This document shows positions 500-64,000 of a stretch of DNA of 64,000 nt, piece after piece; positions within the stretch are counted from its first letter, which is position 1; every line of letters begins with the position of its first letter. Source of the stretch: Escherichia phage PBM-2; sequence record PV029541. One strand, given 5' to 3'. Under the pieces are notes generated by a model, which was not told the origin of the DNA, searched no databases, and worked only from the letters and a program-made list of their open reading frames with translations. Both the position numbers and the translations under genes were made by a program.

Positions 500-1552
500 A
501 TGGCGAGCATTGACTCACTGACCGTATGTAATACACGTCAGGCCCGTAACTTTATTATTCGTGCCCTGCAAGCAGGTAACGTACCATTCCTGACTTCATC
601 ACCAGGCATGGGTAAATCTGCAATTATTCGTTCTGTTGCAGAAGAATTTGGTATGAAGCTGATAGACCATCGTCTGTCTACTTCTGCCCCGGAAGACTTA
701 TCTGGTTTACCATTCCGTAATGGTGACCGTGCAGAGTTTATCCCATTCGCTGATTTATTCCCTATTGAGGGGGATGAAATACCAGAAGGATATAATGGTT
801 GGCTCTTGTTCCTTGATGAGTTCCCATCTGCTCGCAAAGAAGTAATAGCTGCTGCATATAAACTGATTCTAGACCGTATGACTGGTCAGAAAAAACTCCA
901 TCCTAATGTGATGATTATCTGCGCTGGTAACAAGGCTACTGACCGTGCCATTGTTAACCCACTGGGTACTGCAATGCAGTCTCGTGTTGTCCACTTCGAA
1001 ATGGAACTTAACTTCGACATCTTTGTTGAAGACGTAATGATTCCACAACAATGGGATGAACGCCTGGTTGCATTCCTACATGCTAATCCAGGTTATCTGC
1101 ATGACTTTGACCCAGCCCATAAGAACAAAACGTTCTGTTGTCCTCGTACCTGGGACTTTGTTAATAAAGACCTCAAGAACCGTCCTGAAGGTGCTCTGCC
1201 TGACGAAGATTCTATCTACTATGCAGGACACGTTACTGCTGGTAAGGCTACAGAATTTGTTCAGTTTACTCAGGTATACAATCGTATGATTACGATTGAG
1301 AAGGTAGTAAAAGACCCTTTGGGCTGTGCACTACCAGAAGATAACAACCTGTGCTGGGCTACCGTTAACCATCTGGCTAACAAAACCACTGAGGAAAACT
1401 TCGCTGATGTTCTTCAGTACATCGAACGCTTTAAAACGTTCACCCATAAGATTCTGTACTTCCGTACAGTAGGCAGAGCATTACCAGAACTTCAGGCTAC
1501 CCCTGAATGGCGTAAGGCTGCTGCTAATATCTCTCGTTACCTTCACGGATAA
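500..1552 (+). CDS. AAA+ ATPase, MoxR/AAA_5-like
   Basis: Walker A SPGMGKS, Walker B LLFLDEF, sensor-1-like CAGNKATDR; RBS GGAGAG upstream; followed 4 nt later by a vWA-type partner gene. Confidence 0.75.
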   Translation: MASIDSLTVCNTRQARNFIIRALQAGNVPFLTSSPGMGKSAIIRSVAEEFGMKLIDHRLSTSAPEDLSGLPFRNGDRAEFIPFADLFPIEGDEIPEGYNGWLLFLDEFPSARKEVIAAAYKLILDRMTGQKKLHPNVMIICAGNKATDRAIVNPLGTAMQSRVVHFEMELNFDIFVEDVMIPQQWDERLVAFLHANPGYLHDFDPAHKNKTFCCPRTWDFVNKDLKNRPEGALPDEDSIYYAGHVTAGKATEFVQFTQVYNRMITIEKVVKDPLGCALPEDNNLCWATVNHLANKTTEENFADVLQYIERFKTFTHKILYFRTVGRALPELQATPEWRKAAANISRYLHG

Positions 1553-27216: not shown

Positions 27217-30200
27217 TTAGTTAGCTAGATTGAGCCAAGGGTTAAGGTTATGGGCACGAAGTCCCTGACCGAAGCCCCAGGAGTAACCGAGATTGCCTTG
27301 TGCAGCAATACTGAAGATGTTGTCCTGAATAGGTAAACCAACATTACCAAACATGGTAGGAGTTGGAGCCAACATAGCCATAGCTGCGTGTACCGGGTTG
27401 TTACGAATCATGGATACTGCAATTTTTGCAGAACGAATCTTAAAATTATAGAACCACATAAGACCAACACTTTCCATATACCCACGGAAGCGACCAGGCA
27501 GACGGTCATAGTTAATGAACTCTTCCGTTACACGTCCAAGTGCTTCTTCACGAGTCTTACCTTTACGCTGAGTCAAATCATCATAGATGATTGCTTTAGC
27601 AATAAAGTCAGAGTACTCAACCGTCTTCTGGATACCCTGGAATAAAGCAGTATCCTTGGTGATAAGGGCATAACGTCCAGCATTACGTACAGACTTAGGT
27701 AACTTATCAGCCAGTTTATCCATGTATTCGTGAAGTTTACCTTCAGTAATCAGGATGTCATCTCGTCCAATACCAGCATCTGCAATTGAAGAAAACTCAC
27801 CAGCTTCTAACAGAGGCCAGATACTCATACGCTTATGACTATCAGTGATGGACTGAATTTCAGCCTTAAGCTTACGAATCTGGTTCGGGTTAGTAGCTGC
27901 ACGTAATTCTGCTTCTGCATCTACCTGACGCAGACGAGATTTCAGGTACTGGTTAATCTCAGCAGTCTTCTGTGGAATGCTCTTAGCAATGTTCTTAACA
28001 GGTACACCACGACCAACCATCTGGTAAAGGTTAGCCAGGAAGTTAACAGCAGGAACAACTACTGATTTAACTACAATCAGAGTCTTAGCTTCTTTAACTA
28101 AGTTTTGAACCAGGTTCTCACCACCCATTACATACTTATAAGCACGGTTGCCGAATACACCCAACATAGCTTTCTTGAAGGTATCCAGTGTTTCTGGTGA
28201 CCAACGAGAATTGCCAGACCAGGCATCACCTACGGAAGCTGCACGATAGCCCAGTGCATCATTCAGCATGTCACGACGTACCCACAACTCACCAGGACCA
28301 AACAGACTTTCTGCTTTCTGACGAGTTTCACTGTTCATCAGCTTAAGGGCATCAGCAGTTACTGGGTCCAGTTTAGAACCAAGAAGGTTAACGTACTGTG
28401 ACTTGTTAGAGGCAGACATTTTAATGTCGTTTTCATACATGCTATGCAGGTTCTCAATCAGCATATCGTTAAAACGCTGAGCCTTAGCTTCCTCTACCTG
28501 ACGACCACGCCATACACCGATTGCACGAGCGAGATGGTTCTCACCCTCAATGTGCTTCAGCATGTTAGGGTCAATAGATTGCTCATAAGCAACCACATTG
28601 CCTTTATCATCATATACAGGCAGCAGTGGTTCATTACCACGTTCACCGCGAGCCAGTGCTTTAGTGATACGGTCTACAGAAGGCTTGTCAGTGATACGAC
28701 CAGCTACCATTGTACCCATCGTAAAGCCTGTACCAAGGTCTACACCACCAGCAGTATTGCGAACGTTCTGTAAGATACCTTGCGAGAATGGAGCCTGTGC
28801 CTGTACCGGTGCAAAGTAGTAGCTACGTGCTGGACCACGATTAGCAGAGCTACCCTGATAAGTACCCAGACGTACATAGGACTTCTCAATCAAATCAGCA
28901 AACTGACTATCTTCAGCAACAATCAAGTTAACACCCTGTTTAGTCTCACCAGGAATATACCCTTTGTACTGGTTCAGAGTTGCACGAGTATCAGATTTGG
29001 CTTTAGCCATTTCATCTTTACGCTGACCAACCAGATAAGAAGTAGCGAAGTCCATGCCTTCAATCTCTGTCTGAGCCAGTGAAGATAACATCTCACGGTC
29101 AGTCTTACTCATTGCTTCCAGTGCATACAGAGTAATCAGTTTATCCAGTTGAGCTACATCTACAGTAGAACGTGCAGCCTGTCGTTCACCCAGCATACGA
29201 GAGATTGCAGTAGCATTACGCAGCAAGTTATTACCAACTGTGCCATTAATCATGTACTGAGCCAGTTGCTTAGATTTACGGCTAATCAAAGGCCAGTTAC
29301 GTCCTGCTTGTTTCTGCAAATCTGCTTCCAGCTTATTCACTTCACGGTCAACAATCTTTTGGTCAGTCAGCAAGTCACGAATTTCACCCAGAGACATAGT
29401 GTCACGCAGAACAGCTAAGTCGGTTTTACCCATACCGGTATGCATTGCTTTCCACTCATCATTAGTAAGCTTACGGCTGAACTTAGATGCAATAGTGGTA
29501 GGCAAATGTTCACGGAACTGCTGACGGTCAGCCTGTACCTGTGCACGCACTGCTTTAATCAAATCATATACAGAAGCATTGCTCTTAGTACGACCAGTTA
29601 AGTCATTAACCAGGTCATGGAAAGGTTGCCATACCTTACCCTGGTTCATTGCAGCCATAACACCCTCAGCTACGATTGCACCATTTTTCTCTGTAGCAAT
29701 AGCAGCTATTAGTTGTGCAGCATGAGCAGCACCTTTAACCAACGGGTTCTTGGTATTAGCTGCAACTTCACGAGCACCCTCTAAAGCACGGGTAGACAGT
29801 ACATCAATAGAATCCACCAGATACTGGTTAGCACGGTCGATAGCATTACCACTAGGAGTAGCAATGGAATCATAGAAGGACTGCGCATTGAGACTCGTCT
29901 GCATGATTGTCTGAGCCAGTGCATCCATACCTTCCTGTACGTTGGTAGCTTTAGTATCTCCTGCTACACGAGCATTCAGACTAGCCATTGCAGCAGTACC
30001 GATGTTAGTCAGCATTGCATCAGCGGTATTGCCAGATTTCTTGTCTACTTTCATAACAGGAATGTCAGCCAGTACTTTACGCACTTCTTCACTTACCATT
30101 GCCAGACCAACAAAGGTAGGCAGTAAGGAAGAACGGCCTTGTGCATCAAACTCAATGTTGTTAGCACCCATGATGGTATCGAACTTCTGCTGTGCATAGT

Positions 30201-33200
30201 AACGGTCAGCAGGGTTAGTACTATCTGGGTCAGCCATGAATGACTCAACGGTCAGGTTCTTAGTAACATGTGTGTAGTATTCCTGTGCACGAGCCAGAGC
30301 AGCAGGATTAATAGCAGCTTCAGTAGCCAGTGCAGCAACAATGTTAGTAAAGAGACGTTGTTCCTGCATATTCATAGTGAAGCCATGAGCCTGAACATCA
30401 CGAGTTACTTTAGTCGCATTAACCACTGCATCAGAGAACTTACCTTTACGAATTACTTGCTGTACTGGTTCAGAACCAATGTAGTCAGTAATCAGTTTAT
30501 CGAAGGTTTTCCCTAGCTCTTCCAGACGAGTATTGTCACCATACGTTTTGTTATGGAACAGAGTAGTATCTTTGGCTACAGCAGCAGTAGGAGCTTGCCC
30601 ACGCATAACTACGGACGAGTTAAACAGTAAGCCAGAGAACATATCATCTGCATTAGCTGGTGCTTTCTTACGCCCAAATACCAGACGCTTGATTGCTTCA
30701 TATACAGCCTGAACCATAGTCTTCAGTGCAGTGGTTTTCTTCTGCTTACTAATCAGTTCACGGTTAGTTAAACCCCATGCCATGTACTCATTCAGTGCAG
30801 CAGCTTTAGCCATTGCTGGCTCAATGAAGCCATTAGATAGATGACCGTTAATAGTATTAAGAGCATCTGCATATGCTTCCCGAACTGCCGGGGATTCATC
30901 CTTAACATCCAGAGCACGGAACTGGTTCATCAGGTCTTCAATGTTCTGGACCGCTTCATTAGGAGTACCCTCATAGTGAGCCAGTACAGATTCAAAAGTA
31001 GAAGCATGCACCAATTCATGAACCAGAGTCTCTAAGGAAGGGGTAACTAAGTAGATGGTCTTATCTTCAAAGTTAGTCCAACCATACGCATTACCAGCTT
31101 CAGCAGCTTCAATATCTTCTGGTGCTGGGCGAGTAATATTCTTCTCAATAGCATAAGCATCCAGTTGGGAAGGTGTACCGTAAACAACCTTATAATCTTT
31201 AGCAGCAAGGGATTTCTGTACTTCTTTCAGTACTGCTTGCTGTTCCGGAGACATCTCTTTAGCCAGCTTAGAGATAGCAGTATTAGACAGTAGGCGTACA
31301 CCAGACTTCAGTACACGACCAACCTGTTCCATTGCTGGCACTTCTTTCACTGGTTCTACTTTAGCAGCACGTACTGCATCACGACGTTTGTTTAATTCAG
31401 CATCGAACAGTTCATTTAGCTTAGCTACTTGTTGGTCTACGGTCAGACCTTCCAGAGAGATTTTACCGTTGTTCACATAAGGAGCACCAACAGCAGCCAT
31501 CTGGTCAACAGTAGTCTGTACCTGGTTCATTACTTTGTGACGAATATCTACACCCAGAGCAATATTACGCAGGTTACGTTCAATCTGTTCAGCACCAACA
31601 CGTAACAGGTCATCGGTAGCACCTTCACGCTGGTCATATTCCAGAGCAGATTTAGCGATAGCCTGTTTGGTTTCATCAGATAGTTTGCTGAAGTCTACGT
31701 TCTTCATGAACTTAGTAAAAGACTCATAAACATTCTTGATAGGGTTACCCTGCCAGGAAGTGTATACAGCCTCGTTAGCTTTACGACTTGCATCAGTGAT
31801 GTTGTCGATACCAATGTTCATACCATCAAAGATTTTCAGGGTATTCTTCGGAGCACCTTTCATAGTAGAAAGGGTCTGCATCATCATGCCATCACCAGTG
31901 CCAATGGTCATAAATGGAATACCTGCAACGCCTGCCTGAGAAGGAGCATAGATGCTCATTGGCACACGCATACGGTCATCTAAGTTGGTAGCCAGTACCT
32001 GGTTAGCAACATCAGTATTCTCACTACCAGCAATATAGAAAGTCTGTGAACCAGTCTCAATCATTGGAGCCAGTGGAGACAATGATTCCTGAATTTCATT
32101 CAGTTCTTTCTGTGTTAAGAAATCACCCTTCTTCCAGGTTGGGTCTTTTTCTTTTTCTGCCAGCTTAGCCTGTACTGCTTGTTGGAACATGTCTTGTAGA
32201 ACCAAAGACTGAATCTGGGTAGCCTTCTGCAAGTTCTCAGTAGAATGCATCAGACCTTCCCCAACAGTATTCCGGATACCAGTACGCATTGGTTCAACGA
32301 ACAGGTGAAGCATGTTCTCTTGTAAGTTCTTCAGGGCATTACCCGATACGGTAAACTTCTGAGGGTCTAACTTACCAGTCAGAGCACCTTCTACCTGTTG
32401 AATAGACAATTCACCTTTACGCATAACTGGAACATTACCAGTCAGTGCTTCCATAGAAGTAAGGAAAGTATCCAGCATAGCCTGAGCATCAGCCTCAGAC
32501 GCAGCCTCCTTACCAAACATTGCCATAGCTGGGGAAATACTAGGGTCAGCAGCACGAGCTTGCAGAACATCACTGAAGCGTTCATAGATGGTATCAGTAA
32601 TTGCACTAACCATCTTGCCAGCAATACCACGAGCACCTGAACCATAGATGGTAATGGTCAGTGGGTTTTTAGCGATACCACGTTTTAGGTCCAGAGTACC
32701 GTCTTCATTCAGGTTAAAGTCTTTAATAAACAGGTCCATTAACTTCTGAAGATGATTCATTTGGTTCATAACCGGAACGTTGTTACGGTAAGTAGTACGT
32801 AACTCATTAAGTGCTTGTTGCAGACCATTGGTAGATGCTTCATACAGGTCAACACTGTCATCCTGTGAACGATGCTCATTCATAGTCTTACCAGCTTTAC
32901 CGAAGAACAGACCACCTTTAGCAGTATTCTTAATCCAGTCTGAAGTGAACTTACCACCTGTCATTAATATCATTGCGTTGATTGGTCCGTTGGTTACACC
33001 ATCGGCTTCAACGTACAGTGGGGTATTAAAGTTGGCACGGTCATCACTGTTCAGGTAACGGGCATATTCCATAAGAGCCATGAGAGCTACGAATGATTTA
33101 TCGCCACCCAAAGAAGTCTTCAGAATATCTACTGCATCAGCTGGTAAGTGGCCAGACTTATCAAACTCAACCATCATATCAACAGCAGGTTTCAGATTAC

Positions 33201-36200
33201 CTTCCAGAGCTTTGGTCAGCTTTTCAGACATAGCTTCACGGGACATATTATGTACCTTGATACCCAATGCCTGAGCCAGTCCTAGCTGGAAGTCAGAGAA
33301 TGTTTGGCTGTTTTCATTACTCAAGTCAATAGTAGAGAAGGTTGGCAGAATTGCTTCACGAACCAGTTTACTGGATTGTGGGTTGTTCTTACCTAACATC
33401 TGCATACGACCTACACGGGTCATGTTGTAACCATAGTGAATAGGCGTATCCAGACCATTCTCCTGTTCCTGTAACTGGTTGATTACACCGAACAGGGAAT
33501 CATATGCCATAGACACTGACAGGTTTTTACCCTCCAGTGACTTAGCAGTGTTCACGTTCAGCAGTTCAGGATTAAGAGTACCAGCACCCATCAGTTCCAG
33601 AATGTTGTCACGACCTAATGCTTCATAGAAGTTAACCATCGGCATGTGTACACGGAACTCGGTAGCCTGTTCTGCTTTAAGAGCAGCTTTCTGCTCTGGG
33701 GTATTCTTAACAGCAGGGTTACGTAACTGAGTTTGAGCCACGGAAGGAATATCATCACCAAAGTACATTTTCTCTTCTGGTTCTACGAGAACAGCTTCCT
33801 CGATAGCAGTAGGGAACTTGTTAATGGCATCGTTATCATCCAGCTTCTCAATGGTATACAGACCGACGGTCTTATTAGAGTCTGGGTCAATCTCAGACAC
33901 ATCAAGCATAGACTCTTTAACTTCACCCATCTCAATGAGAGAAGACAGAATCTCTGTAGCCATTGCCATTGGAATACCTTTGGTATAACCCAGTGGTGCA
34001 TTAGGATTACGATTCAATCCCCAGTAAGATTCAATCTTTTGAGCCAGTGAGTTAGTAGCTTCAACCAGAGTCTGAGCATTCTCAAATTCAGCCAGGATAC
34101 CTTCAGGTAACAAGGATGCTTCTACTCCAGTAATAGCAGCTACATCTTTCATGTCTTTAACAGCAGCATTCTGTGTAGCAGTCAGTCGCCATTGCAGACC
34201 AGCAAGTACAGCAGTCTCTAACAACTGGTCATTGAACTTAAAGGTGTCTCCGTCTTTCTCTACGATATTAAGTAACTTACCACCTACCCAACGGTTAGCC
34301 TCTGTGCCTTCTGCAAAGCGTTTACCAACGTTCTTATTAGCAAGAAACTTAGCCAGACGATCAGACAGAGTAGTCTTCAGAGTTTCACCAAAGCCCATTA
34401 AGTCCTGATAACGCTTAATCACATCACTTGTGAGAGCGTTATTTTCTTTTTGAGTGAATGCTTCAAAGCGTGCAGTAGAAGACAGTGCTTGCTTAATATC
34501 AGTCAAAGGGGATTCAGAACCAATGGTGCGAGACTTAGGTTCTTCCGGCAGGGTAAATGATTTCAGGAACTGGTTCGGTGTCTTGTCATTGTTATAGACA
34601 GGGAAAACTGTTTCCATTTCCGTTTTAGTTTCAGCTACTTTTTGAGTGGTATCCTCATTGGTGAGGGTAGCATCTACTGTTTCAGACTTAGTAGTAGAGA
34701 CTTCTTCTGCTTTTGAACTAGCCTCTTTAACAGGAACAGTCTTATTTTCTACCACTGGTTTAGCTTTAGGCTGTACAGTAGTAGTAGTAGTCTCTTGCGC
34801 TGGTGCAGGAGTTTCATCAACCTGATTCACTGGTTCATTGGTCTGTTGAGACTGAGTGGCATCAAGACCACCTTGACGGAACTCTTTAACTACCTGGGCA
34901 GCAGGCTTGTCCAGACGTGAATCTAATGGAGTAACCTTCACATGAGAAACATTAAGCTCCGGGTAAGCCGTAGCAAGTGCGTTAGCAATATCAGCTACGG
35001 TTTTGGCCTCCAGTCCTACTTGCTGGGCAAACTTAACCGACTTGGTATCATACGGATTGACACCAAGACCAGTACGACTACGTACCCATTCACGGGAGGG
35101 AGTAAGAGCCTGATAATGGACAGACTTATTCTTATCCGCATTCCCAGAAATCAGATGCTCATTCAACGCTCCGACCTTATTCTGCATGTGCTGGGCGAAC
35201 TTCATAAAGTCGTCGAGGTAAGCGGAAGCCAAATCGAAGTTACCAGAGTTGTACGCAGAACGAATGCGTTTAGCATGTTGCAACGCAGAGTACTGACCTT
35301 CATTAGAACGAGACTCGTCGGTTTTAATCTGTTTACTAACAATGTCTTGAGGACGTAAGCCTAGTTCTTCTGCTTTAGCGTCAAATTCTCGTGCTCCTTG
35401 CAATAGAGCAGCAGCAGATTGCAGGGCAGCACGCTGACGATTCCCCAGTGTAATCTTACCTTCACTTGCATGTTTCAGAACCATGTTCACTGAGTCTGCA
35501 TCCAGTACTTCTGGAGACATATCAGCAGCCATAGCAATGTTGTTTGCTTGGGCTTGGTTAGCTTCTTCGGTAGCTTTCAGTTTACCTGCTTCAGCCTGTT
35601 CCTGAATCATAGAATGGATGGCACGGAATGCACGAAGTACCTTTGGTGTATTCTGAACGTTAGCCATCAGGCCGGAGAACTGGTCAACAATATTAGCAGC
35701 AGGAGAACCCTGTTCCAGATTAGCTAAAGCACCAGGATCACGGTTAATGAAGCTATCCATAGACATGATGTTGTCATACATCTGGATTGCAGCTTCCATT
35801 TGAACGTTAGGGTCTTCAGTAGTATTAACCAGGTCTGCCATCTTCTGAATAGCTTCCACACGGTTAGTGGAACCAGAAACAGCTTCACGGATTGTAGGAC
35901 TAGCTTGCTCCAGTTCTACTGGGTCAAACTTCATTGCCTGAGTTAAGTCAGCAGCATACTGAGTAGCAGCAGCTTTCTCTTCAGGAGAAATGTCCATTGC
36001 ATCTACTGCTTCCTGTACAGTTGCTTGTGCTTGTTCTGCTTGAGCAGTAGCTTCTTGTGCAGCAGCATTAACCGTAGCATCTGATACAGGGGATGCTTGC
36101 TCATTACGCTTAGCAACTTCTTCGCCACGCTGAACCAGGATGTTAGTAATAGGAGAGGCAGCTTTTGCTAATGCACTACCAACCAGAGAAGCACCAGCCA

Positions 36201-37572
36201 GAGTAGTACGTAAAGCAGGCCCAGCAGAAGCACCAACAGCTTTAACAGTTGTACCTGGAGCCTGAGCAACACCAGCACTACCGAAGCCGTAGAGTGCACC
36301 AAGACCTGCTTGCTCACCGACACCTTTAAGCAAATCACGCTTAGCATCTACATTACCCTGAATTGCCTTGTTCTGTGCAAACTGACTTGTACCAGACTGA
36401 ATACCTTCTTCTACTGTTTCACGTAGCATGTTAGAACCAGCACCAGCCAGCGAACCTACCTTAAGTGGGTTAAGTTCAAATTTGGATACCAGAGGACCAG
36501 TAGCAGCAGCAACCGGAGCAGTTAAGCCAGCAGCAATGATACCCGTTTCAGATGCAGTTTGGCGACGTGCTTCATCAGGAGATAAACCATCAGCGATATG
36601 CTGTTGATAAACAGGAGACTTACTTGCCAATTCTTGATGGGACATCTTCATGATTTCGGAAGCAGTCTGTTGGTATGCACCACCAGCTTCCATACCACCA
36701 ATTGCAATAGCAGGTGCAGCAACACGACCAGCAGACAATGCAACCTGTGCAGGACGTGAACCTAACTCAGCAGCTAAGGTAATACCCTTAACAGCTTTAT
36801 CACCACCTACCATTACTTTACCGAGTGCAGATACACCACGAATTAATGGACCACCGGTAAAGAGAGAACCAACACCTTCACTCAGCCCATCAGTAGCAGC
36901 CATACCATTATCAAGCGTATTAGCAACAGAATCAAAAGCATCACGACCAATACGAGACAGAGAGGCAACCAAACTGCTCTCTCCATTTTTAATGTCTTCT
37001 TCGTAGAGTTTCTGGTTCTTTTGTGCAGAAATCTGGTTCTGATTCTGAACAACCTTACGGGTAGCATTCAGTGCGTCAGACTGTAGATTGTGTACCCCTT
37101 CATTCAGCCAATCCATCCCGGAAGCAATGGATGCCCCGGCATTATCATTGACCAAACCCGTACCAAGAGCAGCAATGCCCCCAAGGGTATTAGCAACACC
37201 AAGACCAACACCAGAAAGAGTATCACCAAATGCTTCTGCGTTAGTACGTTGCTTAGATAAGTCCTGACGTACAACATCAGCAGCATTAGCTCGGCTATTA
37301 AGAATCTGTAGACCTTGCTCATTACCGTATTTATTAAGAATTTCTAATGGGGAGGCTTGAGTGAAATCTGCCTGAAGTGAACCTGGTTCGAATGCACCGA
37401 TTCCAAGATTACCTACACGACCAGTTTGGAGATTGTAAGCATTCTCTGGGGTTAATTGGAAAGGGCTTTGCCCTTGTGCAGCTTGCTTCTGAGAGGTTGC
37501 AGTAGAGACATCGACTTGCTTAGCATTAGTGATGCTGTCTGCGAAACCTGCCAGACGGTCAAATGTTGACAT
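27217..37572 (-). CDS. virion-encapsidated RNA polymerase (N4 vRNAP-like giant protein)
   Basis: About 3450-aa single ORF, the hallmark of N4-like phages; ATG at 37572 with AGGA upstream (ORF-track start at 37590 is TTG). Confidence 0.9.
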   Translation of the reverse strand: MSTFDRLAGFADSITNAKQVDVSTATSQKQAAQGQSPFQLTPENAYNLQTGRVGNLGIGAFEPGSLQADFTQASPLEILNKYGNEQGLQILNSRANAADVVRQDLSKQRTNAEAFGDTLSGVGLGVANTLGGIAALGTGLVNDNAGASIASGMDWLNEGVHNLQSDALNATRKVVQNQNQISAQKNQKLYEEDIKNGESSLVASLSRIGRDAFDSVANTLDNGMAATDGLSEGVGSLFTGGPLIRGVSALGKVMVGGDKAVKGITLAAELGSRPAQVALSAGRVAAPAIAIGGMEAGGAYQQTASEIMKMSHQELASKSPVYQQHIADGLSPDEARRQTASETGIIAAGLTAPVAAATGPLVSKFELNPLKVGSLAGAGSNMLRETVEEGIQSGTSQFAQNKAIQGNVDAKRDLLKGVGEQAGLGALYGFGSAGVAQAPGTTVKAVGASAGPALRTTLAGASLVGSALAKAASPITNILVQRGEEVAKRNEQASPVSDATVNAAAQEATAQAEQAQATVQEAVDAMDISPEEKAAATQYAADLTQAMKFDPVELEQASPTIREAVSGSTNRVEAIQKMADLVNTTEDPNVQMEAAIQMYDNIMSMDSFINRDPGALANLEQGSPAANIVDQFSGLMANVQNTPKVLRAFRAIHSMIQEQAEAGKLKATEEANQAQANNIAMAADMSPEVLDADSVNMVLKHASEGKITLGNRQRAALQSAAALLQGAREFDAKAEELGLRPQDIVSKQIKTDESRSNEGQYSALQHAKRIRSAYNSGNFDLASAYLDDFMKFAQHMQNKVGALNEHLISGNADKNKSVHYQALTPSREWVRSRTGLGVNPYDTKSVKFAQQVGLEAKTVADIANALATAYPELNVSHVKVTPLDSRLDKPAAQVVKEFRQGGLDATQSQQTNEPVNQVDETPAPAQETTTTTVQPKAKPVVENKTVPVKEASSKAEEVSTTKSETVDATLTNEDTTQKVAETKTEMETVFPVYNNDKTPNQFLKSFTLPEEPKSRTIGSESPLTDIKQALSSTARFEAFTQKENNALTSDVIKRYQDLMGFGETLKTTLSDRLAKFLANKNVGKRFAEGTEANRWVGGKLLNIVEKDGDTFKFNDQLLETAVLAGLQWRLTATQNAAVKDMKDVAAITGVEASLLPEGILAEFENAQTLVEATNSLAQKIESYWGLNRNPNAPLGYTKGIPMAMATEILSSLIEMGEVKESMLDVSEIDPDSNKTVGLYTIEKLDDNDAINKFPTAIEEAVLVEPEEKMYFGDDIPSVAQTQLRNPAVKNTPEQKAALKAEQATEFRVHMPMVNFYEALGRDNILELMGAGTLNPELLNVNTAKSLEGKNLSVSMAYDSLFGVINQLQEQENGLDTPIHYGYNMTRVGRMQMLGKNNPQSSKLVREAILPTFSTIDLSNENSQTFSDFQLGLAQALGIKVHNMSREAMSEKLTKALEGNLKPAVDMMVEFDKSGHLPADAVDILKTSLGGDKSFVALMALMEYARYLNSDDRANFNTPLYVEADGVTNGPINAMILMTGGKFTSDWIKNTAKGGLFFGKAGKTMNEHRSQDDSVDLYEASTNGLQQALNELRTTYRNNVPVMNQMNHLQKLMDLFIKDFNLNEDGTLDLKRGIAKNPLTITIYGSGARGIAGKMVSAITDTIYERFSDVLQARAADPSISPAMAMFGKEAASEADAQAMLDTFLTSMEALTGNVPVMRKGELSIQQVEGALTGKLDPQKFTVSGNALKNLQENMLHLFVEPMRTGIRNTVGEGLMHSTENLQKATQIQSLVLQDMFQQAVQAKLAEKEKDPTWKKGDFLTQKELNEIQESLSPLAPMIETGSQTFYIAGSENTDVANQVLATNLDDRMRVPMSIYAPSQAGVAGIPFMTIGTGDGMMMQTLSTMKGAPKNTLKIFDGMNIGIDNITDASRKANEAVYTSWQGNPIKNVYESFTKFMKNVDFSKLSDETKQAIAKSALEYDQREGATDDLLRVGAEQIERNLRNIALGVDIRHKVMNQVQTTVDQMAAVGAPYVNNGKISLEGLTVDQQVAKLNELFDAELNKRRDAVRAAKVEPVKEVPAMEQVGRVLKSGVRLLSNTAISKLAKEMSPEQQAVLKEVQKSLAAKDYKVVYGTPSQLDAYAIEKNITRPAPEDIEAAEAGNAYGWTNFEDKTIYLVTPSLETLVHELVHASTFESVLAHYEGTPNEAVQNIEDLMNQFRALDVKDESPAVREAYADALNTINGHLSNGFIEPAMAKAAALNEYMAWGLTNRELISKQKKTTALKTMVQAVYEAIKRLVFGRKKAPANADDMFSGLLFNSSVVMRGQAPTAAVAKDTTLFHNKTYGDNTRLEELGKTFDKLITDYIGSEPVQQVIRKGKFSDAVVNATKVTRDVQAHGFTMNMQEQRLFTNIVAALATEAAINPAALARAQEYYTHVTKNLTVESFMADPDSTNPADRYYAQQKFDTIMGANNIEFDAQGRSSLLPTFVGLAMVSEEVRKVLADIPVMKVDKKSGNTADAMLTNIGTAAMASLNARVAGDTKATNVQEGMDALAQTIMQTSLNAQSFYDSIATPSGNAIDRANQYLVDSIDVLSTRALEGAREVAANTKNPLVKGAAHAAQLIAAIATEKNGAIVAEGVMAAMNQGKVWQPFHDLVNDLTGRTKSNASVYDLIKAVRAQVQADRQQFREHLPTTIASKFSRKLTNDEWKAMHTGMGKTDLAVLRDTMSLGEIRDLLTDQKIVDREVNKLEADLQKQAGRNWPLISRKSKQLAQYMINGTVGNNLLRNATAISRMLGERQAARSTVDVAQLDKLITLYALEAMSKTDREMLSSLAQTEIEGMDFATSYLVGQRKDEMAKAKSDTRATLNQYKGYIPGETKQGVNLIVAEDSQFADLIEKSYVRLGTYQGSSANRGPARSYYFAPVQAQAPFSQGILQNVRNTAGGVDLGTGFTMGTMVAGRITDKPSVDRITKALARGERGNEPLLPVYDDKGNVVAYEQSIDPNMLKHIEGENHLARAIGVWRGRQVEEAKAQRFNDMLIENLHSMYENDIKMSASNKSQYVNLLGSKLDPVTADALKLMNSETRQKAESLFGPGELWVRRDMLNDALGYRAASVGDAWSGNSRWSPETLDTFKKAMLGVFGNRAYKYVMGGENLVQNLVKEAKTLIVVKSVVVPAVNFLANLYQMVGRGVPVKNIAKSIPQKTAEINQYLKSRLRQVDAEAELRAATNPNQIRKLKAEIQSITDSHKRMSIWPLLEAGEFSSIADAGIGRDDILITEGKLHEYMDKLADKLPKSVRNAGRYALITKDTALFQGIQKTVEYSDFIAKAIIYDDLTQRKGKTREEALGRVTEEFINYDRLPGRFRGYMESVGLMWFYNFKIRSAKIAVSMIRNNPVHAAMAMLAPTPTMFGNVGLPIQDNIFSIAAQGNLGYSWGFGQGLRAHNLNPWLNLAN

Positions 37573-37636
37573 AGCATGTTTCCTGTTCAAACTTATATCG
37601 TATATAGAAAGCTTACTCTACAGTAAGCCAGTGTAA

Positions 37637-58814: not shown

Positions 58815-60404
58815 TCACACAATATATGAACGTAGGGGGTTAACACTATCTTCTTCTTCATCGTCCCACATCGGGTCACCCTTGTTATCCACCATAGTCA
58901 TACCTGCCTGTGGTTTCCAGGGATTGAGATAACCCAGCATAGAGATAGTATCAATACAGTCATCCTTACCTTTGATTCCATTAATGGTAGCTAATTTAAT
59001 CTGGTCCATGAACAAACCCATAATAGTTGAATCTCTCAACTCTTCCGGGAAGTACATCTTACCAGCTTTGAACCATGGAACTACCAGGTTAAAGCGTGAC
59101 AGCTTAGAGGTTACAGGACGTATGCCTGGCTTACCACCTTCAGAGGATGCAAAGTTAAAGAAGACATTACGGTTAATCATTTCTTTTTGAAGGAGTGAGA
59201 TGAATCCACCTTGTTGACCTGTGGTTTCGACCCCAACATTTTGTGGTTGGTATTCCTGAACCAGACGGAATAAGTCATCAAAGTTTTTATCCATAAGCTG
59301 ACGATTAGCCACACCATCAACCCAGAACCAATCTCCATTAGAACTATAAGCCCAAACTGAAATGACACTGTAGTCACTGGTCTGTTTCTCCGAAGTAGCA
59401 AAGTCAGTTGTAATGTAATAGTTGTAGCAGGACTTCATCCTTAATAGTTGTTGTCTGCTATACCACCTAATTTCACTATCCTGAACCAGTCTCTCATCTT
59501 CAGAACTAATACGAAGCATAAGTTCCTGATAGAAGCCTGCCAGCTTACCCGTCTTAACTGCCATATCGTATTGGGCTTTGATATAGTCATAAGAGAAACG
59601 GTCATCCCATGCACCCTGAAATTCTTCCCTGCTACAGGGGAACTTCTCGCATACAGGCCATACGTTGACATCCCATGCACCAGACTCAACTGCTTCAATG
59701 ATAATGTCTTCCTTATTAAAGGGAGTACCATTGAAAATTACTTTACGACGGGTTGGGTCAAGAGCATGGTTCACACCTTTATAGACGGTATCCTTAATAG
59801 CTTCCATGCTTGTCTTGGAGTTAGCATCACCATCGCTAATCAAGTCATCCAGTACACAGAGTGTTGGACGTTTACCATATATCTTCGTACCACGAAGACC
59901 TGTCTTAGCACCAAACAACTTAACACCAAGTCGATGTCCTTCTACATTACGGAACTCCAGAAGGTTATCTGTAAATGTAGCCTCAGGTATCCATTGCTGA
60001 AGGAACTCACTATTCTTGTAACGGAACTCAATGTTCTTACGTGCAGACTTAGCACCGTTATCCATTGAGTCAGATACGTAAATCATTCCTTCTACCTTAC
60101 CCAGGCTTGGTAAATGACCAAACACTGCCAGGAACAAAGTAAAGTACTCCATGAACACAGCAGTTTTACCTGCACCACGGAAACACAGGTTAACTACATA
60201 CTGGTTCGGGCTAATCATCTTATCCAACATCTTCAAGTGAACTGGAGGTGTTTTGTTGGATTCACCTTCTTTGCCATTAACCAACTTAATAAAGTTGGCA
60301 AAGGTAAGAGCAAACTGACTAGGAACATAGTTAGATGAATTAAGGTGGGAGTAGTCCACCTGGTCCAGCCATTCATCCAGTTCCTGTTTAATTAACTCAG
60401 ACAT
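58815..60404 (-). CDS. terL: terminase large subunit
   Basis: Walker A CFRGAGKT, Walker B LCVLDD, nuclease-domain acidic residues (YYITTDFA, DDCIDT); ATG 60404 with GAGGA upstream overlaps the upstream stop. Confidence 0.85.
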   Translation of the reverse strand: MSELIKQELDEWLDQVDYSHLNSSNYVPSQFALTFANFIKLVNGKEGESNKTPPVHLKMLDKMISPNQYVVNLCFRGAGKTAVFMEYFTLFLAVFGHLPSLGKVEGMIYVSDSMDNGAKSARKNIEFRYKNSEFLQQWIPEATFTDNLLEFRNVEGHRLGVKLFGAKTGLRGTKIYGKRPTLCVLDDLISDGDANSKTSMEAIKDTVYKGVNHALDPTRRKVIFNGTPFNKEDIIIEAVESGAWDVNVWPVCEKFPCSREEFQGAWDDRFSYDYIKAQYDMAVKTGKLAGFYQELMLRISSEDERLVQDSEIRWYSRQQLLRMKSCYNYYITTDFATSEKQTSDYSVISVWAYSSNGDWFWVDGVANRQLMDKNFDDLFRLVQEYQPQNVGVETTGQQGGFISLLQKEMINRNVFFNFASSEGGKPGIRPVTSKLSRFNLVVPWFKAGKMYFPEELRDSTIMGLFMDQIKLATINGIKGKDDCIDTISMLGYLNPWKPQAGMTMVDNKGDPMWDDEEEDSVNPLRSYIV

Positions 60405-61086
60405 CTGTAATGTCCTCATCTGCACGTACTAGTTTAGAACCAGCAACCTCTTTAGTAGGTACTCCACTATTGATTGCATTAATCTGCTGTTCAGCCAATG
60501 CAGCAAGTGTTGCCTTGAGGTCAGTTAATCCGGAGTTCTCTCTCAAGTCCAGATTGATGTTCGTTACCTGGTCTTTCGGTTTAGCTAAGTGAGTAAGGAT
60601 AGAGTTAGCTGCATCACATCTTACCTTCTCACTTGCTGCTGTAGTCATAAGTTCAACCTGAACGTTGATAGCCTTCTGATAGTTGTCCTGGTTCACAATC
60701 CACACTGGAACCAAACTTTGTTCCATGATGAGGTTAACTAGCTTGCCTCTGTGGTAAGCAGATACATAAGCACTGATATCTTTCTCACTGGTTCCTCGTG
60801 CTACAAGTTCTGCTTGTCGGTTAGGGAATGTCTTAAAGTAGGCTTCCTTATTTGAGTAGCCCATGTGTTTGTAAGTCACATACTGAACTGCATTCATGTA
60901 GTCCTGTGTCTTAAACTTACCTTCCTTCATAACTCCAGAGTAAGAGATGAAGTTTTCACGGAATGCTTCAGCAACCAGTTGGTCTTGGGTAATGTTGTTA
61001 ATTGTGTCCACCAACTCCTGGGTTACACTGTTCTTGAAGTTAGCAGGTAGGGCATTAACAATCTGCTGCTTAGTTAGTTCACTCAT
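60397..61086 (-). CDS. putative terminase small subunit
   Basis: 229-aa ORF immediately upstream of and overlapping terL; assignment by position only. Confidence 0.4.
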   Translation of the reverse strand: MSELTKQQIVNALPANFKNSVTQELVDTINNITQDQLVAEAFRENFISYSGVMKEGKFKTQDYMNAVQYVTYKHMGYSNKEAYFKTFPNRQAELVARGTSEKDISAYVSAYHRGKLVNLIMEQSLVPVWIVNQDNYQKAINVQVELMTTAASEKVRCDAANSILTHLAKPKDQVTNINLDLRENSGLTDLKATLAALAEQQINAINSGVPTKEVAGSKLVRADEDITDV

Positions 61087-61257: not shown

Positions 61258-61548
61258 TTGAGAATCTATATGAGAGTCCACGACTCCAAAGATGAATACA
61301 AAGAACTAGACCATACCAAGGCTGGTATTCTTTCAGATGATATTATCATTACACATGATGAAGATTCCTACCATGAATTAGCTGGGATGATGCTATTAGA
61401 GAATCGTCCAGGCATTAAGATCTTAGAACCAAGAGAAAGTTACTCTTTAGAAAAGAGACTTTCAGCTCTTGTGTTCTTCACAAAATTACCTCATAGTGTC
61501 TCCGTCAGGCGAAGCAAAGACAGTGTTCGGATGACGGTGATGATGTGA
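61258..61548 (+). CDS. hypothetical early protein
   Basis: 96-aa ORF, TTG start with AAAGGAG 7 nt upstream (alternative ATG at 61270); first + strand gene after the divergent intergenic region. Confidence 0.35.
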   Translation: MRIYMRVHDSKDEYKELDHTKAGILSDDIIITHDEDSYHELAGMMLLENRPGIKILEPRESYSLEKRLSALVFFTKLPHSVSVRRSKDSVRMTVMM

Positions 61549-61696
61549 TTAGTCATGCCGCCTAGTAGACAGTGGCGGTACTCGTAAAGAGTTAATAACT
61601 TCTACAGTCAGAGTTACCCGGCTCCTTTCCTACCTAGTAGGCTAATGATACACATGTATCTAGGGTGATGAACTGACCCGTGATTGAAAACGGTAA

Positions 61697-61732
61697 GGGG
61701 TAGAGTCGAGAGGCTCTACCCCATTTCTTTTT
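61697..61732 (+). terminator. rho-independent terminator
   Basis: GGGGTAGAGTC-GAGAG-GCTCTACCCC 10-bp stem followed by ATTTCTTTTTC. Confidence 0.65.
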
Positions 61733-61748
61733 CAGGAGGTATGCAAAT

Positions 61749-62147
61749 ATGAGCATCTACGCTTTTGATATTGATATTACTGGGATACTTCGTAATCAAG
61801 AACCTTATTACCTTGGGGAACCAGAAGTAGTAAGTAAGTTCATTACCCCATGGCAAACAGTATTCTTACCTGACTGTGAAGAGTCACACGAGGTTATTGG
61901 TTCTCTTTTCCTATCCAACCTGCAACTCAATACTAAGATACTCACTGAACCAAAGGTGTATGACCTCTCCTTTTACAGCGACTTTAGTATGATTTTCCCT
62001 GGTGTTAGGTTCTATAAAATACCTGGTTGGGAATTGATAGCTGACCATAATGTCTTTAATAAAACACTTTCCATTTACTTCAGACCTATTCCTAAAGGAA
62101 GGAAAATTAATCATGAAATTCATAATGACCATCCCCAGTTTTGCTGA
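61749..62147 (+). CDS. hypothetical early protein (paralogue family)
   Basis: 132 aa; shares the motif HEV-G-LFL with the next gene. Confidence 0.45.
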   Translation: MSIYAFDIDITGILRNQEPYYLGEPEVVSKFITPWQTVFLPDCEESHEVIGSLFLSNLQLNTKILTEPKVYDLSFYSDFSMIFPGVRFYKIPGWELIADHNVFNKTLSIYFRPIPKGRKINHEIHNDHPQFC

Positions 62148-62427
62148 AAGGGAATCTATGTATACAACTGACTTCTCTTTAGAAGAAGTAATGAACAGCA
62201 ACCCCCAGCAAGTAATCCTGGTTCCTACCTTAGAGGACTACCATGAAGTAAGGGGACAACTATTCTTAGCAGGTAATGATCGTAAGGTTGTATGTATTAT
62301 TCCACCCTCTGTCTATACCAACTACAGTGCAGGTGACCCTATCCCATATATGTTGGTATCTAATGACTACCAATGGGATAGTCGGTATGTAAATGATGAA
62401 TACTGTTACTACTATATAAGGAAGTAA
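62113..62427 (+). CDS. hypothetical early protein (paralogue family)
   Basis: ATG at 62113 with AGGAAGGAAA upstream; motif YHEVRGQLFLAG parallels SHEVIGSLFLSN in the upstream gene. Confidence 0.45.
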   Translation: MKFIMTIPSFAERESMYTTDFSLEEVMNSNPQQVILVPTLEDYHEVRGQLFLAGNDRKVVCIIPPSVYTNYSAGDPIPYMLVSNDYQWDSRYVNDEYCYYYIRK

Positions 62428-62430
62428 GAT

Positions 62431-62751
62431 ATGCATCTGTATTGCCTTAGTAGCTTTGCTACTACTTGCTATTTGTCTCCATATACATTGGATAATATCC
62501 TGGCAGGTAAGGGGAGAGTTACCACCATCCTGTATGAGCCAAGTGAAGATGCAGATGTGCTCATAGGTACTTGCTTAATGTTGGGGCAACCTATCCAATT
62601 CATTAAGATAGTAGATTCCGTAGAAATACCGGAACACACCAGTGTGTACATATTGTCAGAGAGTGAACCTATGGTAGTAACTACCCTTACTGGTAGACTT
62701 ATTACCCTCTATCCTTCTACCTCATATTTATCTAGCGACGAGAGTCTCTAA
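62431..62751 (+). CDS. hypothetical early protein
   Basis: 106-aa ORF, tightly packed with neighbours. Confidence 0.4.
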   Translation: MHLYCLSSFATTCYLSPYTLDNILAGKGRVTTILYEPSEDADVLIGTCLMLGQPIQFIKIVDSVEIPEHTSVYILSESEPMVVTTLTGRLITLYPSTSYLSSDESL

Positions 62752-63080
62752 TGAAACTAAACACATCACCCTACCCGGTACAGTTAGAAGTAGTATTCGA
62801 CCAGGATACCTTCATTAAAAAGTATAAGAAACTTAAAGGGCATGAGCCAGACTTGGATGGTTGTAAGGGGTATACTTCTTATTCTGGCAATCGAGTATTG
62901 ATTGGTATCTTTAGGGAACCTTTACATACACTCATCCACGAACTCAACCATTTCTGTTTGTGGGCGTTTGACTACATAGGTATGCCTATAAACTCTGCCA
63001 ATAGTGAAGCATATTGCTATTACTATGACCACATCCTCTCCCAGATTCCTTCCTCCTATTTAACTGCTTATAAGGATTAG
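62751..63080 (+). CDS. small HExxH-motif protein (putative mini zinc metallopeptidase)
   Basis: TLIHELNHFCLW contains a HExxH motif in a helix-like context; 109 aa; ATGA overlap with the upstream gene. Confidence 0.4.
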   Translation: MKLNTSPYPVQLEVVFDQDTFIKKYKKLKGHEPDLDGCKGYTSYSGNRVLIGIFREPLHTLIHELNHFCLWAFDYIGMPINSANSEAYCYYYDHILSQIPSSYLTAYKD

Positions 63081-63081
63081 C

Positions 63082-63354
63082 ATGAGATTATATTTCCTAT
63101 CAGATATGGGAAGGTTACATGTAGGAGAGGGTATACTATGGAATTGGATATGTAACAATATTCCCAATGTACCTGTATATGTTCACTCCGATATAGACTA
63201 TCACTGGTTAAGAGGCGAGTGCTTACTTAGAAATATGATAGTTAACTTCATAAAACTAGAACCATGGGATAGGGTATCCGATGTATCTGGCCCATGCTAC
63301 TTCTTAGCAGTTAATGGGCATAGAGCAGAGAAGATGTTATATAGAACTAAATAG
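63082..63354 (+). CDS. hypothetical early protein
   Basis: 90-aa ORF 1 nt after the previous stop. Confidence 0.4.
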   Translation: MRLYFLSDMGRLHVGEGILWNWICNNIPNVPVYVHSDIDYHWLRGECLLRNMIVNFIKLEPWDRVSDVSGPCYFLAVNGHRAEKMLYRTK

Positions 63355-63742
63355 AGGGTAGATAGATACCTTCTCATAATATTTATAAATAAGGCAGAAC
63401 CGGTGACAAGAGTACAATACCTATGAATCCTATAGCGAAGGCACAGGCAATAAAGTGAAGCCAGTTCTCAGGGTCTGTAGGATTGTAATTACCCCAACCA
63501 TCTTTCATGTTAGTACCTCAAAGTTATCTGCTTATAGAGATAGTGCCTATAATATTTTTGTATGTCAAAATTGTGATAGCTATATACAGCAGCAGTGTTG
63601 TGGCTGGGGCTACACCCTTACACTCAACCATCCCCCCCGGTATGTTGACGGTGTAGCCACTACCCTACCCCACCTTACACGTTACACATGCTCCGCATGT
63701 TATGGACATGTCGTCCTATCATCAACTATTGGAGCTATCATC

Positions 63743-64000
63743 ATGACTACTACCGCTACTGTACGTATGACCGCAGGAACTTTACTTGGTACTGTTAACT
63801 CAGCTGCTACTACTGTTGCAGATACATTTGGTACAGCAACTAAAGCAGTAGGTATGCTTAATTCATATGTAAGTACTATGGCAGAGAAACAAGCCATCCG
63901 TACTAAATTAGAAATGCATACCTTTGTTAATAAACTGGCAGAGGAGACAGCTATGACTGAGACTCTGCGTAAGAAAAGTATTGAAGAATTCTGTAAGGAT
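63743..64000 (+). CDS. hypothetical protein, 3'-truncated at window edge
   Basis: ATG at 63743 with GGAG 8 nt upstream; frame remains open to the end of the window. Confidence 0.35.
   Translation, partial: MTTTATVRMTAGTLLGTVNSAATTVADTFGTATKAVGMLNSYVSTMAEKQAIRTKLEMHTFVNKLAEETAMTETLRKKSIEEFCKD

What the first reader, a model, noticed from the sequence alone, without database searches (positions are those of the whole stretch)
62751..63080. Mini HExxH protein among early-type genes
A 109-aa protein with HExxH (IHELNHFCLW) in a short predicted helix, at the gene-dense right end where host-takeover genes are expected. Small phage metallopeptidases can target host proteins.
Basis: seen in the sequence. 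Interest (0 to 1): 0.45.

Follow-up and report, generated by a model that had tools for sequence, protein, structure and literature searches.

The report
Stand-alone mini zinc protease, phage accessory gene
The 109-residue protein is very probably a real, minimal zinc-dependent protease from a widespread but uncharacterised phage-only family; it is an optional gene at the right end of an N4-like coliphage, not a classical early gene, and its target is unknown.

Summary
The ORF (62751-63080, +, 109 aa) and its HELNH motif (H63-E64-H67) are real. The window is Escherichia phage PBM-3, a G7C-like, N4-like Gamaleyavirus. HExxH alone is weak evidence: 0.42 copies are expected by chance in the window proteome. 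Conservation is decisive. The protein belongs to PHROG 1365 (unknown function), with 647 50%-identity clusters in a 1.84-billion-protein library. In 120 diverse members (21-92% identity) the only invariant residues are H63, E64, H67 and E86, and 114 of 120 have the spacing HExxH-X18-E, the gluzincin signature. AlphaFold (pLDDT 92.8) gives strand-helix-strand-strand-helix(HExxH)-helix(E86), which is the published core of the zincin-like metallopeptidase domain with nothing added. No Pfam, NCBIfam or PADLOC family is matched, and no solved structure is significantly similar. Predicted viral structures that match and carry a name are PolyVal, SprT-like, BepA-like and IrrE metallopeptidases. The "early, host-takeover" part is not supported. 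The gene sits after the terminase genes, just before the right terminal repeat. G7C lacks it, and homologues elsewhere lie in late, lysis, packaging or replication modules with no conserved partner. Best reading: an accessory cytoplasmic Zn endopeptidase with an unknown substrate.

The parts
62751..63080 (+). ORF of 109 aa: stand-alone minimal zincin-like (gluzincin-type) metallopeptidase, PHROG 1365
   Evidence: ORF; phrog_1365, E=1.3e-28; homologues; AlphaFold pLDDT 92.8
62892..62909 (+). Codons of residues 48-53 (RVLIGI): predicted strand beta3 directly before the active-site helix. In zincins the equivalent edge strand binds substrate (inferred)
   Evidence: strand 48-53; hydrophobic-G-hydrophobic-F pattern conserved; sub-threshold matches to astacin/SprT/M35 cover exactly strand + HExxH helix
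62937..62951 (+). HELNH motif: H63 and H67 are the predicted Zn ligands, E64 the predicted general base
   Evidence: sequence; 120/120 invariant; inside helix 57-75
63006..63008 (+). Codon of E86, the predicted third Zn ligand on the 'glutamate helix' (85-96). Y90 (117/120) and an acidic residue at 93 (66/120) lie on the same helix face
   Evidence: 120/120 invariant; 18 intervening residues in 114/120; helix 85-96
61749..63354 (+). Tightly packed five-gene operon that carries the gene: gp71, gp71.1, gp71.2, mini-zincin, 90-aa ORF. The four others are distant paralogues of each other and of gp70
   Evidence: gene order and names; paralogy; sequence overlaps read
63353..63374 (+). Terminator-like hairpin plus T-run that closes the operon
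63603..64000 (+). Start of the terminal repeat / genome left end (matches St11Ph5 positions 1-398 and both ends of the PBM-3 record). It marks the mini-zincin as the penultimate gene of the unique right end
   Evidence: G7C annotation of the terminal repeat

Best explanation
The gene encodes a soluble, cytoplasmic, stand-alone Zn2+ endopeptidase that consists of nothing but the catalytic core of the zincin-like metallopeptidase fold. Inferred mechanism: H63 and H67 on the active-site helix and E86 at the start of the following helix hold one zinc ion. E64 activates the zinc-bound water. Strand 48-53 above the helix aligns a substrate peptide. Y90, and possibly the near-invariant Y8, line the pocket. 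It is an accessory, horizontally mobile phage gene. It is present in about two thirds of Gamaleyavirus records and absent from G7C, and it sits as a small cargo gene at module junctions in many unrelated phages. The most likely role is site-specific cleavage of one or a few proteins in the infected cell, a host factor or host defence protein rather than a virion component. Shown: the ORF, family membership, invariance of the catalytic tetrad, its spacing, and the predicted secondary-structure order. Inferred: zinc binding, proteolysis, and the nature of the substrate.
For: The ORF and motif are present. PHROG 1365 is matched at E=1.3e-28, and all 120 diverse relatives match it. A profile search gives 647 50%-identity clusters at E<=1e-3, nearly all 95-180 aa single-domain proteins. 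The only invariant columns among 120 members are H63, E64, H67 and E86. Y8, G40 and Y90 exceed 90%, and the spacing is HExxH-X18-E in 114/120. The same four residues are invariant in distant phage homologues from Guernseyvirinae, Ackermannviridae and Autographiviridae. The AlphaFold model has pLDDT 92.8 and pTM 0.84, with order b(11-15), a(18-29), b(40-45), b(48-53), a(57-75, HExxH), a(85-96, E86). [quoted passage not shown] Every sub-threshold sequence hit that recurs is a zincin: SprT-like 17/120, DUF4344 11/120, M50B, astacin, M4 and M10, and BMP1, Spartan, M35 and oligopeptidase in the PDB. BFVD gives 24 hits at E<=1e-3, and the named ones up to E~0.03 are PolyVal metallopeptidase, SprT-like, BepA-like, 'Metalloprotease' and IrrE. 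hhalign of the family profile against this phage's own vRNAP MPTase segment gives 79% probability over strand + HExxH. Accessory status rests on absence from G7C, presence in 38 of about 58 Gamaleyavirus-type records, and no conserved neighbour across lineages.
Confidence: 0.62

Rival explanations
1. It is a SprT/Wss1-type protease that removes proteins covalently trapped on DNA (DNA-protein crosslinks, topoisomerase or gyrase adducts, blocked ends) during phage replication or packaging.
For: SprT-like is the commonest sub-threshold Pfam hit (17/120 members, best E=0.018). Human Spartan is the top Foldseek-PDB hit (6mdw, E=0.21) and a weak profile hit (E=0.75). A BFVD 'SprT-like family protein' matches at E=4.3e-3. 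Several homologues sit among DNA-transaction genes: between DNA polymerase and helicase in phiEap-2, beside exonuclease subunits 1 and 2 in Ackermannviridae, between TerS and TerL in Possum, and next to a PhoH-like ATPase and terminase in L032.
Against: No hit reaches a curated threshold. To my knowledge the SprT/Wss1 third ligand is a His shortly after HExxH; residues 68-73 here are FCLWAF, and the invariant ligand candidate is E86. There is no Zn-ribbon or other DNA-binding module. The protein is slightly acidic (10 K/R against 12 D/E, counted from the sequence). Contexts are as often lysis or structural as replication.
Confidence: 0.1
2. It is a miniature ImmA/IrrE (COG2856, peptidase M78)-type protease that cleaves an XRE-family repressor, for example to derepress a resident prophage or a host regulon.
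Against: Peptidase_M78 is not among the 25 listed Pfam families, those matched by most of the 120 members, even at E<=1, and the query has no hit. No annotated neighbour in the records inspected is described as a repressor or HTH protein, and no neighbour family is shared across lineages, though I did not scan the neighbours for HTH domains. The family is common in strictly virulent phages (N4-like, Ackermannviridae, Autographiviridae). All the structural scores are in the noise range.
Confidence: 0.08
3. It has a zincin-like fold but is not a protease. It could be a metal-dependent hydrolase of another bond (for example a YbeY-like RNase) or a non-catalytic metal-binding or protein-binding module.
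Against: To my knowledge YbeY uses an HxxxHxxxxxH motif without the Glu. Here E64 is invariant in 120/120 together with the Glu ligand at gluzincin spacing, which is the peptidase configuration described in PMC5512222. A purely structural role would not need E64.
Confidence: 0.12
4. The HExxH is a chance motif in an unrelated small protein.
For: About 0.4 chance HExxH are expected in the window proteome.
Against: The motif and E86 are invariant across 120 members at 21-92% identity, while mean column identity is 15%. 147 of 148 further representatives contain HExxH.
Confidence: 0.01

Closest known systems
Zincin-like metallopeptidase (MPTase) domains of phage/plasmid 'polyvalent proteins' (Iyer et al. 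2017, PMC5512222), including the C1 domain of the N4-type virion RNA polymerase and the C-terminal domain of ArdC
   Same: The core is the same: a three-stranded sheet, an N-terminal helix, an HExxH helix and a following helix with the Glu ligand. They also occur in phages and other mobile elements. A BFVD protein annotated 'PolyVal Metallopeptidase superfamily domain' matches at E=8.2e-4, TM 0.74. The family consensus TLVHELxHA is nearly identical to the motif in this phage's own vRNAP (ETLVHELVHA ... PNEAV), and hhalign gives 79% probability over 21 columns.
   Different: It is stand-alone, about 100-120 aa with no other domain, whereas MPTase domains are embedded in giant multidomain injected proteins. 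It has no Pfam match. The similarity to the vRNAP covers only strand + HExxH. There is no evidence that it is packaged or injected.
Gluzincins in the classical sense (thermolysin M4; M1 aminopeptidases, HEXXH-X18-E) and the ~100-residue 'minigluzincins' (proabylysin/projannalysin; Wss1/Spartan are assigned to that group in PMC4559962)
   Same: It has HExxH plus a Glu ligand on the next helix, with 18 intervening residues in 114/120 members. To my knowledge this is the M1 spacing, one less than thermolysin (H146...E166), and it sits in a '[NS]-E-A' context like thermolysin's N-E-A-I-S-D. The size matches the minimal scaffolds. Peptidase_M4 and BepA/M48-like proteins appear among the weak hits.
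   Different: There is no significant sequence or structure match to any solved gluzincin. It has no C-terminal subdomain beyond one short helix. It was found essentially only in phage or phage-like contigs with the searches used.
SprT-like / Wss1 DNA-protein-crosslink proteases (Pfam PF10263)
   Same: These are small zincin cores. SprT-like is the most frequent sub-threshold family, and Spartan is the top Foldseek-PDB hit.
   Different: The third ligand is Glu rather than His. There is no DNA-binding or Zn-ribbon part. All scores are below threshold.
ImmA/IrrE/CapP COG2856 (peptidase M78) repressor-cleaving proteases
   Same: Both are HExxH plus downstream Glu zincins common in phages. Weak structural hits to CapP and IrrE-annotated proteins were found.
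   Different: No adjacent repressor or HTH gene is annotated in any record inspected, and no neighbour family is shared across lineages. There is no PF06114 match. The family is present in obligately lytic phages.

Membership tests
PHROG 1365 (phage protein family, unknown function) | Significant match to the family HMM over most of its length | tested here: met
   E=1.3e-28, residues 1-102 on profile positions 6-115 of 127. All 120 diverse relatives also match it.
Zincin / gluzincin-type metallopeptidase core (superfamily level) | HExxH motif located in an alpha-helix and conserved in relatives | tested here: met
   H63-E64-H67 are invariant in 120/120 and lie in predicted helix 57-75.
Zincin / gluzincin-type metallopeptidase core (superfamily level) | Third metal ligand is a Glu on the helix that follows the HExxH helix | tested here: met
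   E86 is invariant in 120/120, with 18 intervening residues in 114/120, and lies at the start of predicted helix 85-96. This rests on sequence and secondary structure only.
Zincin / gluzincin-type metallopeptidase core (superfamily level) | Core topology: three-stranded sheet, one N-terminal helix, two C-terminal helices (PMC5512222) | tested here: met
   AlphaFold order is b11-15, a18-29, b40-45, b48-53, a57-75, a85-96 at pLDDT 92.8, compared with the description read.
Zincin / gluzincin-type metallopeptidase core (superfamily level) | Significant 3D similarity to a solved zincin structure | tested here: inconclusive
Zincin / gluzincin-type metallopeptidase core (superfamily level) | Binds one Zn2+ through the three ligands; converging side-chain geometry; peptidase activity | not testable with these tools
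This needs biochemistry or AF3+Zn or a crystal structure.
Pfam SprT-like (PF10263) | Score above the gathering threshold; His as third ligand shortly after HExxH | tested here: not met
   The query has no hit at E<=1. The best of 120 members is E=0.018. Residues 68-73 are FCLWAF, with no His.
Peptidase M78 / ImmA-IrrE (PF06114, COG2856) | HMM match; genetic pairing with an XRE/HTH repressor substrate | tested here: not met
   The query has no Pfam hit and the family is not among the 25 Pfam families listed, those matched by most members. No adjacent repressor or HTH gene is annotated in the records inspected, and no neighbour family is shared across lineages; the neighbours themselves were not scanned for HTH domains.
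MPTase-PolyVal (zincin domain of polyvalent proteins) | Embedded in a large multidomain 'polyvalent' protein; Pfam match | tested here: not met
   The protein is 109 aa and single-domain, and family lengths run 99-177 aa. There is no Pfam hit. The only links are a fold-level match to one BFVD protein so annotated and a motif-level hhalign match to the vRNAP C1 segment.
N4-type early (vRNAP-transcribed) genes | Location at the left genome end downstream of a hairpin promoter | tested here: not met
   The gene is at the far right of the unique region, after gp68-gp71.2. N4 early promoters are confined to the left end (PMC4496689). The only CATGC-TCC-GCATG-type hairpin is at 63687-63699 inside the terminal repeat. 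The actual timing of expression was not measurable here.

The most novel reading that the evidence does not exclude
PHROG 1365 is a large, phage-restricted family of stand-alone minimal zincins that act as proteolytic counter-defence or host-takeover effectors. Each would cleave a specific host immunity or regulatory protein soon after it is made. That would explain why the gene is optional, mobile, partner-less and lodged at module junctions in unrelated lytic and temperate phages. Proteolytic anti-defence would be a mechanism class missing from current catalogues: the words protease, peptidase, proteoly- and metallo- do not occur in the EVADES compendium of 268 anti-defence proteins.
Probability: 0.2. 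Interest if true: 0.7.

Novelty: new member of a known kind. Interest (0 to 1): 0.36.

Why it matters
If the prediction holds, several hundred 'hypothetical' phage protein clusters gain a biochemical annotation as a minimal Zn endopeptidase (PHROG 1365). The family would also be one of the smallest natural zincin scaffolds, about 100 residues and core only. That makes it useful for studying what the fold minimally needs, and as a compact, possibly highly specific protease. Biologically, an optional protease carried by lytic phages used in therapy-oriented collections (UPEC and APEC N4-like phages) could influence host range or defence evasion. Natural presence/absence pairs, such as PBM-3 or St11Ph5 against G7C, make this directly testable.

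Full report
**Observation**

The window contains an ATG-started ORF at 62751..63080 on the + strand. It encodes 109 aa: MKLNTSPYPVQLEVVFDQDTFIKKYKKLKGHEPDLDGCKGYTSYSGNRVLIGIFREPLHTLIHELNHFCLWAFDYIGMPINSANSEAYCYYYDHILSQIPSSYLTAYKD. HELNH occupies residues 63-67, nt 62937-62951. Its ATG overlaps the stop of the preceding ORF (TAATG), and the next ORF starts one base after its stop, so it is part of a compact operon.

The motif by itself is weak evidence. From the H and E frequencies of the window's roughly 59 ORFs (19,196 aa), 0.42 HExxH are expected by chance, and three are seen. The other two are also in zincin-type contexts. One is a DUF2201_N 'putative metallopeptidase' + VWA-like protein at 1557-2732. 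The other is the virion RNA polymerase.

**Where we are**

The last 3 kb of the window are 100% identical to Escherichia phage PBM-3. They are 85-99.6% identical to other G7C-like N4-like phages (Schitoviridae, Gamaleyavirus). The ORF map is in standard N4 orientation:
- rightward replication and middle genes up to about 27 kb;
- the 3457-aa vRNAP and the late genes leftward, ending with terminase gp68 (58815-60425) and gp69 (60397-61086);
- a rightward cluster of small genes after that.

In St11Ph5 and G7C the rightward cluster is annotated gp70, gp71, gp71.1 and gp71.2. Window 63603-64000 equals positions 1-398 of St11Ph5 and is present at both ends of the PBM-3 record. It is therefore the terminal repeat / left genome end.

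So the HExxH gene is the penultimate gene of the unique right end, not part of the left-end early region. For N4 the vRNAP hairpin promoters are stated to be confined to the left end, which is injected first (PMC4496689). The only hairpin of that style I found (CATGC-TCC-GCATG, 63687-63699) lies in the repeat upstream of gp1. No sigma-70-like promoter was found on the + strand upstream of the cluster.

In G7C, gp71.2 is followed directly by the 1160-bp terminal repeat, so G7C lacks the gene. By tblastn, 38 Gamaleyavirus-type records carry it. About 58 records carry the neighbouring conserved intergenic region. The gene is therefore an optional insertion. Its time of expression remains unknown.

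**The family**

The protein matches no Pfam family. It does match PHROG 1365, 'unknown function', at E=1.3e-28. A word-indexed search found 126 close relatives, all 'hypothetical'. A profile search of 1.84 billion representatives found 647 clusters at E<=1e-3. Nearly all are single-domain proteins of 95-180 aa.

tblastn places members in many phage groups:
- N4-like phages of Escherichia, Klebsiella and Pectobacterium;
- Ackermannviridae;
- Guernseyvirinae (phiEap-2);
- Autographiviridae (Achromobacter Axy21);
- P22-like phages (Orf129 of L, ST64T and ST160);
- Ralstonia phages.

In an alignment of 120 members (21-92% identity to the query, mean column identity 15%) the only invariant columns are H63, E64, H67 and E86. 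Y8, G40 and Y90 exceed 90%. The number of residues between the second His and the Glu is 18 in 114 of 120 sequences. That is HExxH-X18-E, the gluzincin arrangement. To my knowledge this is the M1 spacing, one less than in thermolysin, whose ligand Glu also sits in an N-E-A context. C69 and C89, invariant in the N4-like clade, are not conserved family-wide.

**Fold**

AlphaFold2 with a 20-sequence alignment gives a confident model: mean pLDDT 92.8, pTM 0.84. The order of elements is:

| Element | Residues | Feature |
|---|---|---|
| strand | 11-15 | |
| helix | 18-29 | |
| strand | 40-45 | |
| strand | 48-53 | |
| helix | 57-75 | carries HExxH |
| helix | 85-96 | starts at E86 |
| short helix | 102-105 | |

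This is exactly the core that Iyer et al. describe for zincin-like metallopeptidase (MPTase) domains. [quoted passage not shown] The first C-terminal helix carries HEXXH and the second carries the Glu ligand. The HEXXH Glu acts as general base (PMC5512222).

Comparison with solved structures is not significant:
- Foldseek best is Spartan 6mdw at E=0.21.

Against predicted viral structures there are 24 hits at E<=1e-3, and almost all of the listed hits are uncharacterised. The named hits are 'PolyVal Metallopeptidase superfamily domain' (8.2e-4), 'SprT-like family protein' (4.3e-3), 'Beta-barrel assembly-enhancing protease' (8.9e-3), 'Metalloprotease' (9.5e-3) and 'IrrE protein' (2.8e-2).

The most recurrent sub-threshold sequence hits point the same way:
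- Pfam: SprT-like in 17/120 members, DUF4344 in 11/120, M50B, astacin, M4, M10.
- PDB: BMP1, Spartan, M35, an oligopeptidase and a virion RNAP, always over strand + HExxH helix.

The family consensus TLVHELxHA is almost the motif of this phage's own vRNAP C1/MPTase domain (ETLVHELVHA...PNEAV). hhalign gives 79% probability over 21 columns. The HExxH in the N4 vRNAP C1 subdomain is noted in PMC13434306.

I could not access model coordinates, so the convergence of the three ligand side chains is inferred and not measured.

**Context and function**

No neighbour is conserved across lineages. The gene sits in different places in different phages:

| Phage or locus | Position of the homologue |
|---|---|
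| Possum | between TerS and TerL |
| L / ST160 | between Rz and Dec/TerS |
| Axy21 | between endolysin and a spanin-like gene |
| phiEap-2 | between DNA polymerase and helicase |
| Ackermannviridae | beside exonuclease subunits 1 and 2 |
| IMG/VR loci | next to terminase, portal or PhoH-like genes |

It has no signal peptide or membrane segment, and no repressor or HTH partner is annotated beside it. This is the pattern of a self-sufficient, mobile cargo gene.

I therefore commit to a cytoplasmic, site-specific Zn endopeptidase acting on a host protein, or less likely a phage protein (confidence about 0.6 for the enzymology). The biological target is open. Rivals are a SprT-like DNA-protein-crosslink protease (0.10), an ImmA/IrrE-like repressor protease (0.08) and a non-peptidase or non-catalytic zincin-fold protein (0.12). 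A chance motif is excluded by conservation. One natural variant (P0088, HALNH) lacks the general base, which is a caution.

**Comparison with the known, and novelty**

At superfamily level this is a zincin/gluzincin, and it works like one. It fails the membership tests for SprT-like, M78 and MPTase-PolyVal as families. It has no HMM match, a different third ligand from SprT, no HTH partner, and it is not embedded in a polyvalent protein.

It is best described as a new, unannotated member family of a known kind: a solo, core-only version of the MPTase domain. No paper found characterises PHROG 1365 or Orf129. A catalogue of 268 anti-defence proteins contains no protease at all. A proteolytic counter-defence role would therefore be new, but nothing here tests it.

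**Verdict**

Interest is moderate (0.36).

**Other things seen**

The 200-nt spacer upstream of the operon (61549-61748) is more conserved than the genes around it. It folds far better than shuffles (z=-5.0) and shows compensatory changes. It ends in an intrinsic terminator just before the gp71 ribosome-binding site. It is a candidate ncRNA or attenuator that may control the operon carrying this gene. The four other genes of the operon and gp70 look like distant paralogues.

Noticed in passing
window 61549-61748 (+), between gp70 and gp71: Conserved structured non-coding element directly upstream of the operon that carries the HExxH gene. The RNA MFE is -72.6 kcal/mol against -51.7 +/- 4.2 for shuffles (z=-5.0). 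It is 91-100% identical across Gamaleyaviruses, even where the flanking proteins are only 55-63% identical. RNAalifold on 8 sequences gives 53 pairs, 11 with compensatory changes (a three-way junction, a hairpin, then the intrinsic terminator 61697-61722 plus T-run immediately before the gp71 RBS). There is no Rfam match. It is unannotated in the great majority of records listed. Candidate sRNA or transcription-attenuating leader.
   Followed up: partly
window 61258-61548, 61749-62147, 62113-62427, 62431-62751, 63082-63354 (+): The small genes surrounding the HExxH gene (gp70, gp71, gp71.1, gp71.2 and the 90-aa ORF) look like a diverged paralogue array. They share a core of roughly '(D/E)DYHE(V/L)xGxLFL...P'. 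Support comes from PHROG cross-hits, BLASTP gp71 vs gp71.1 at E=1e-5, and a 5-way alignment. Function unknown.
   Followed up: partly
L006 3001-3219 (Salmonella phage P22 NC_002371.2 13996-14214, + strand): An unannotated partial copy of the same mini-zincin family (it aligns to residues 43-114 of the 114-aa query, 36% identity, E=7e-8) lies in the P22 immI region between the sieA promoter and the mnt terminator. Full-length copies are Orf129 of phages L, ST64T and ST160, located between Rz and Dec/terminase.
   Followed up: partly
window 31006-31020 (-), inside the vRNAP gene 27217-37590: The vRNAP carries HELVH at residue 2191 (ETLVHELVHA...PNEAV) in the C1/MPTase subdomain described for N4. 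The motif is almost identical to the consensus of the solo family. hhalign probability is 79% over 21 columns.
   Followed up: partly
window 500-1552 and 1557-2732 (+): An AAA ATPase is followed by a 391-aa protein with DUF2201_N 'putative metallopeptidase' (HELWH at residue 81) plus a VWA-like domain. This is the third HExxH protein of the window.
   Followed up: partly
window 63603-64000; hairpin 63687-63699: The window runs through the right end into the terminal repeat / left genome end (equal to St11Ph5 1-398, and repeated at both ends of the PBM-3 record). A perfect 5-bp stem / 3-nt loop hairpin (CATGC-TCC-GCATG) lies upstream of the gp1 start. It is the type expected for a vRNAP early promoter and is unique in the window.
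   Followed up: partly
L048 (JANQNF010000027.1, 69,347 bp, 'MAG: archaeon isolate PL23a_bin.95'): The only hit in the species-representative genome collection is a 69-kb contig binned as an archaeal MAG. It encodes a 76%-identical mini-zincin and the conserved leader element, so it looks like a Gamaleyavirus-like phage genome that was mis-binned.
   Followed up: no
protein P0088 (108 aa, from a 72-kb contig): A natural relative reads HALNH instead of HELNH, so it lacks the predicted general base, while every other conserved residue is kept. It is either an inactive variant or a sequencing error.
   Followed up: no
window 63383-63508 (-): A 41-aa ORF on the opposite strand between the operon terminator and the terminal repeat has a hydrophobic stretch (FIACAFAIGFIGIVLLSPVL) and may encode a small membrane protein. 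Small hydrophobic ORFs also neighbour the homologues in Possum, CRW-SP2 and L034.
   Followed up: no
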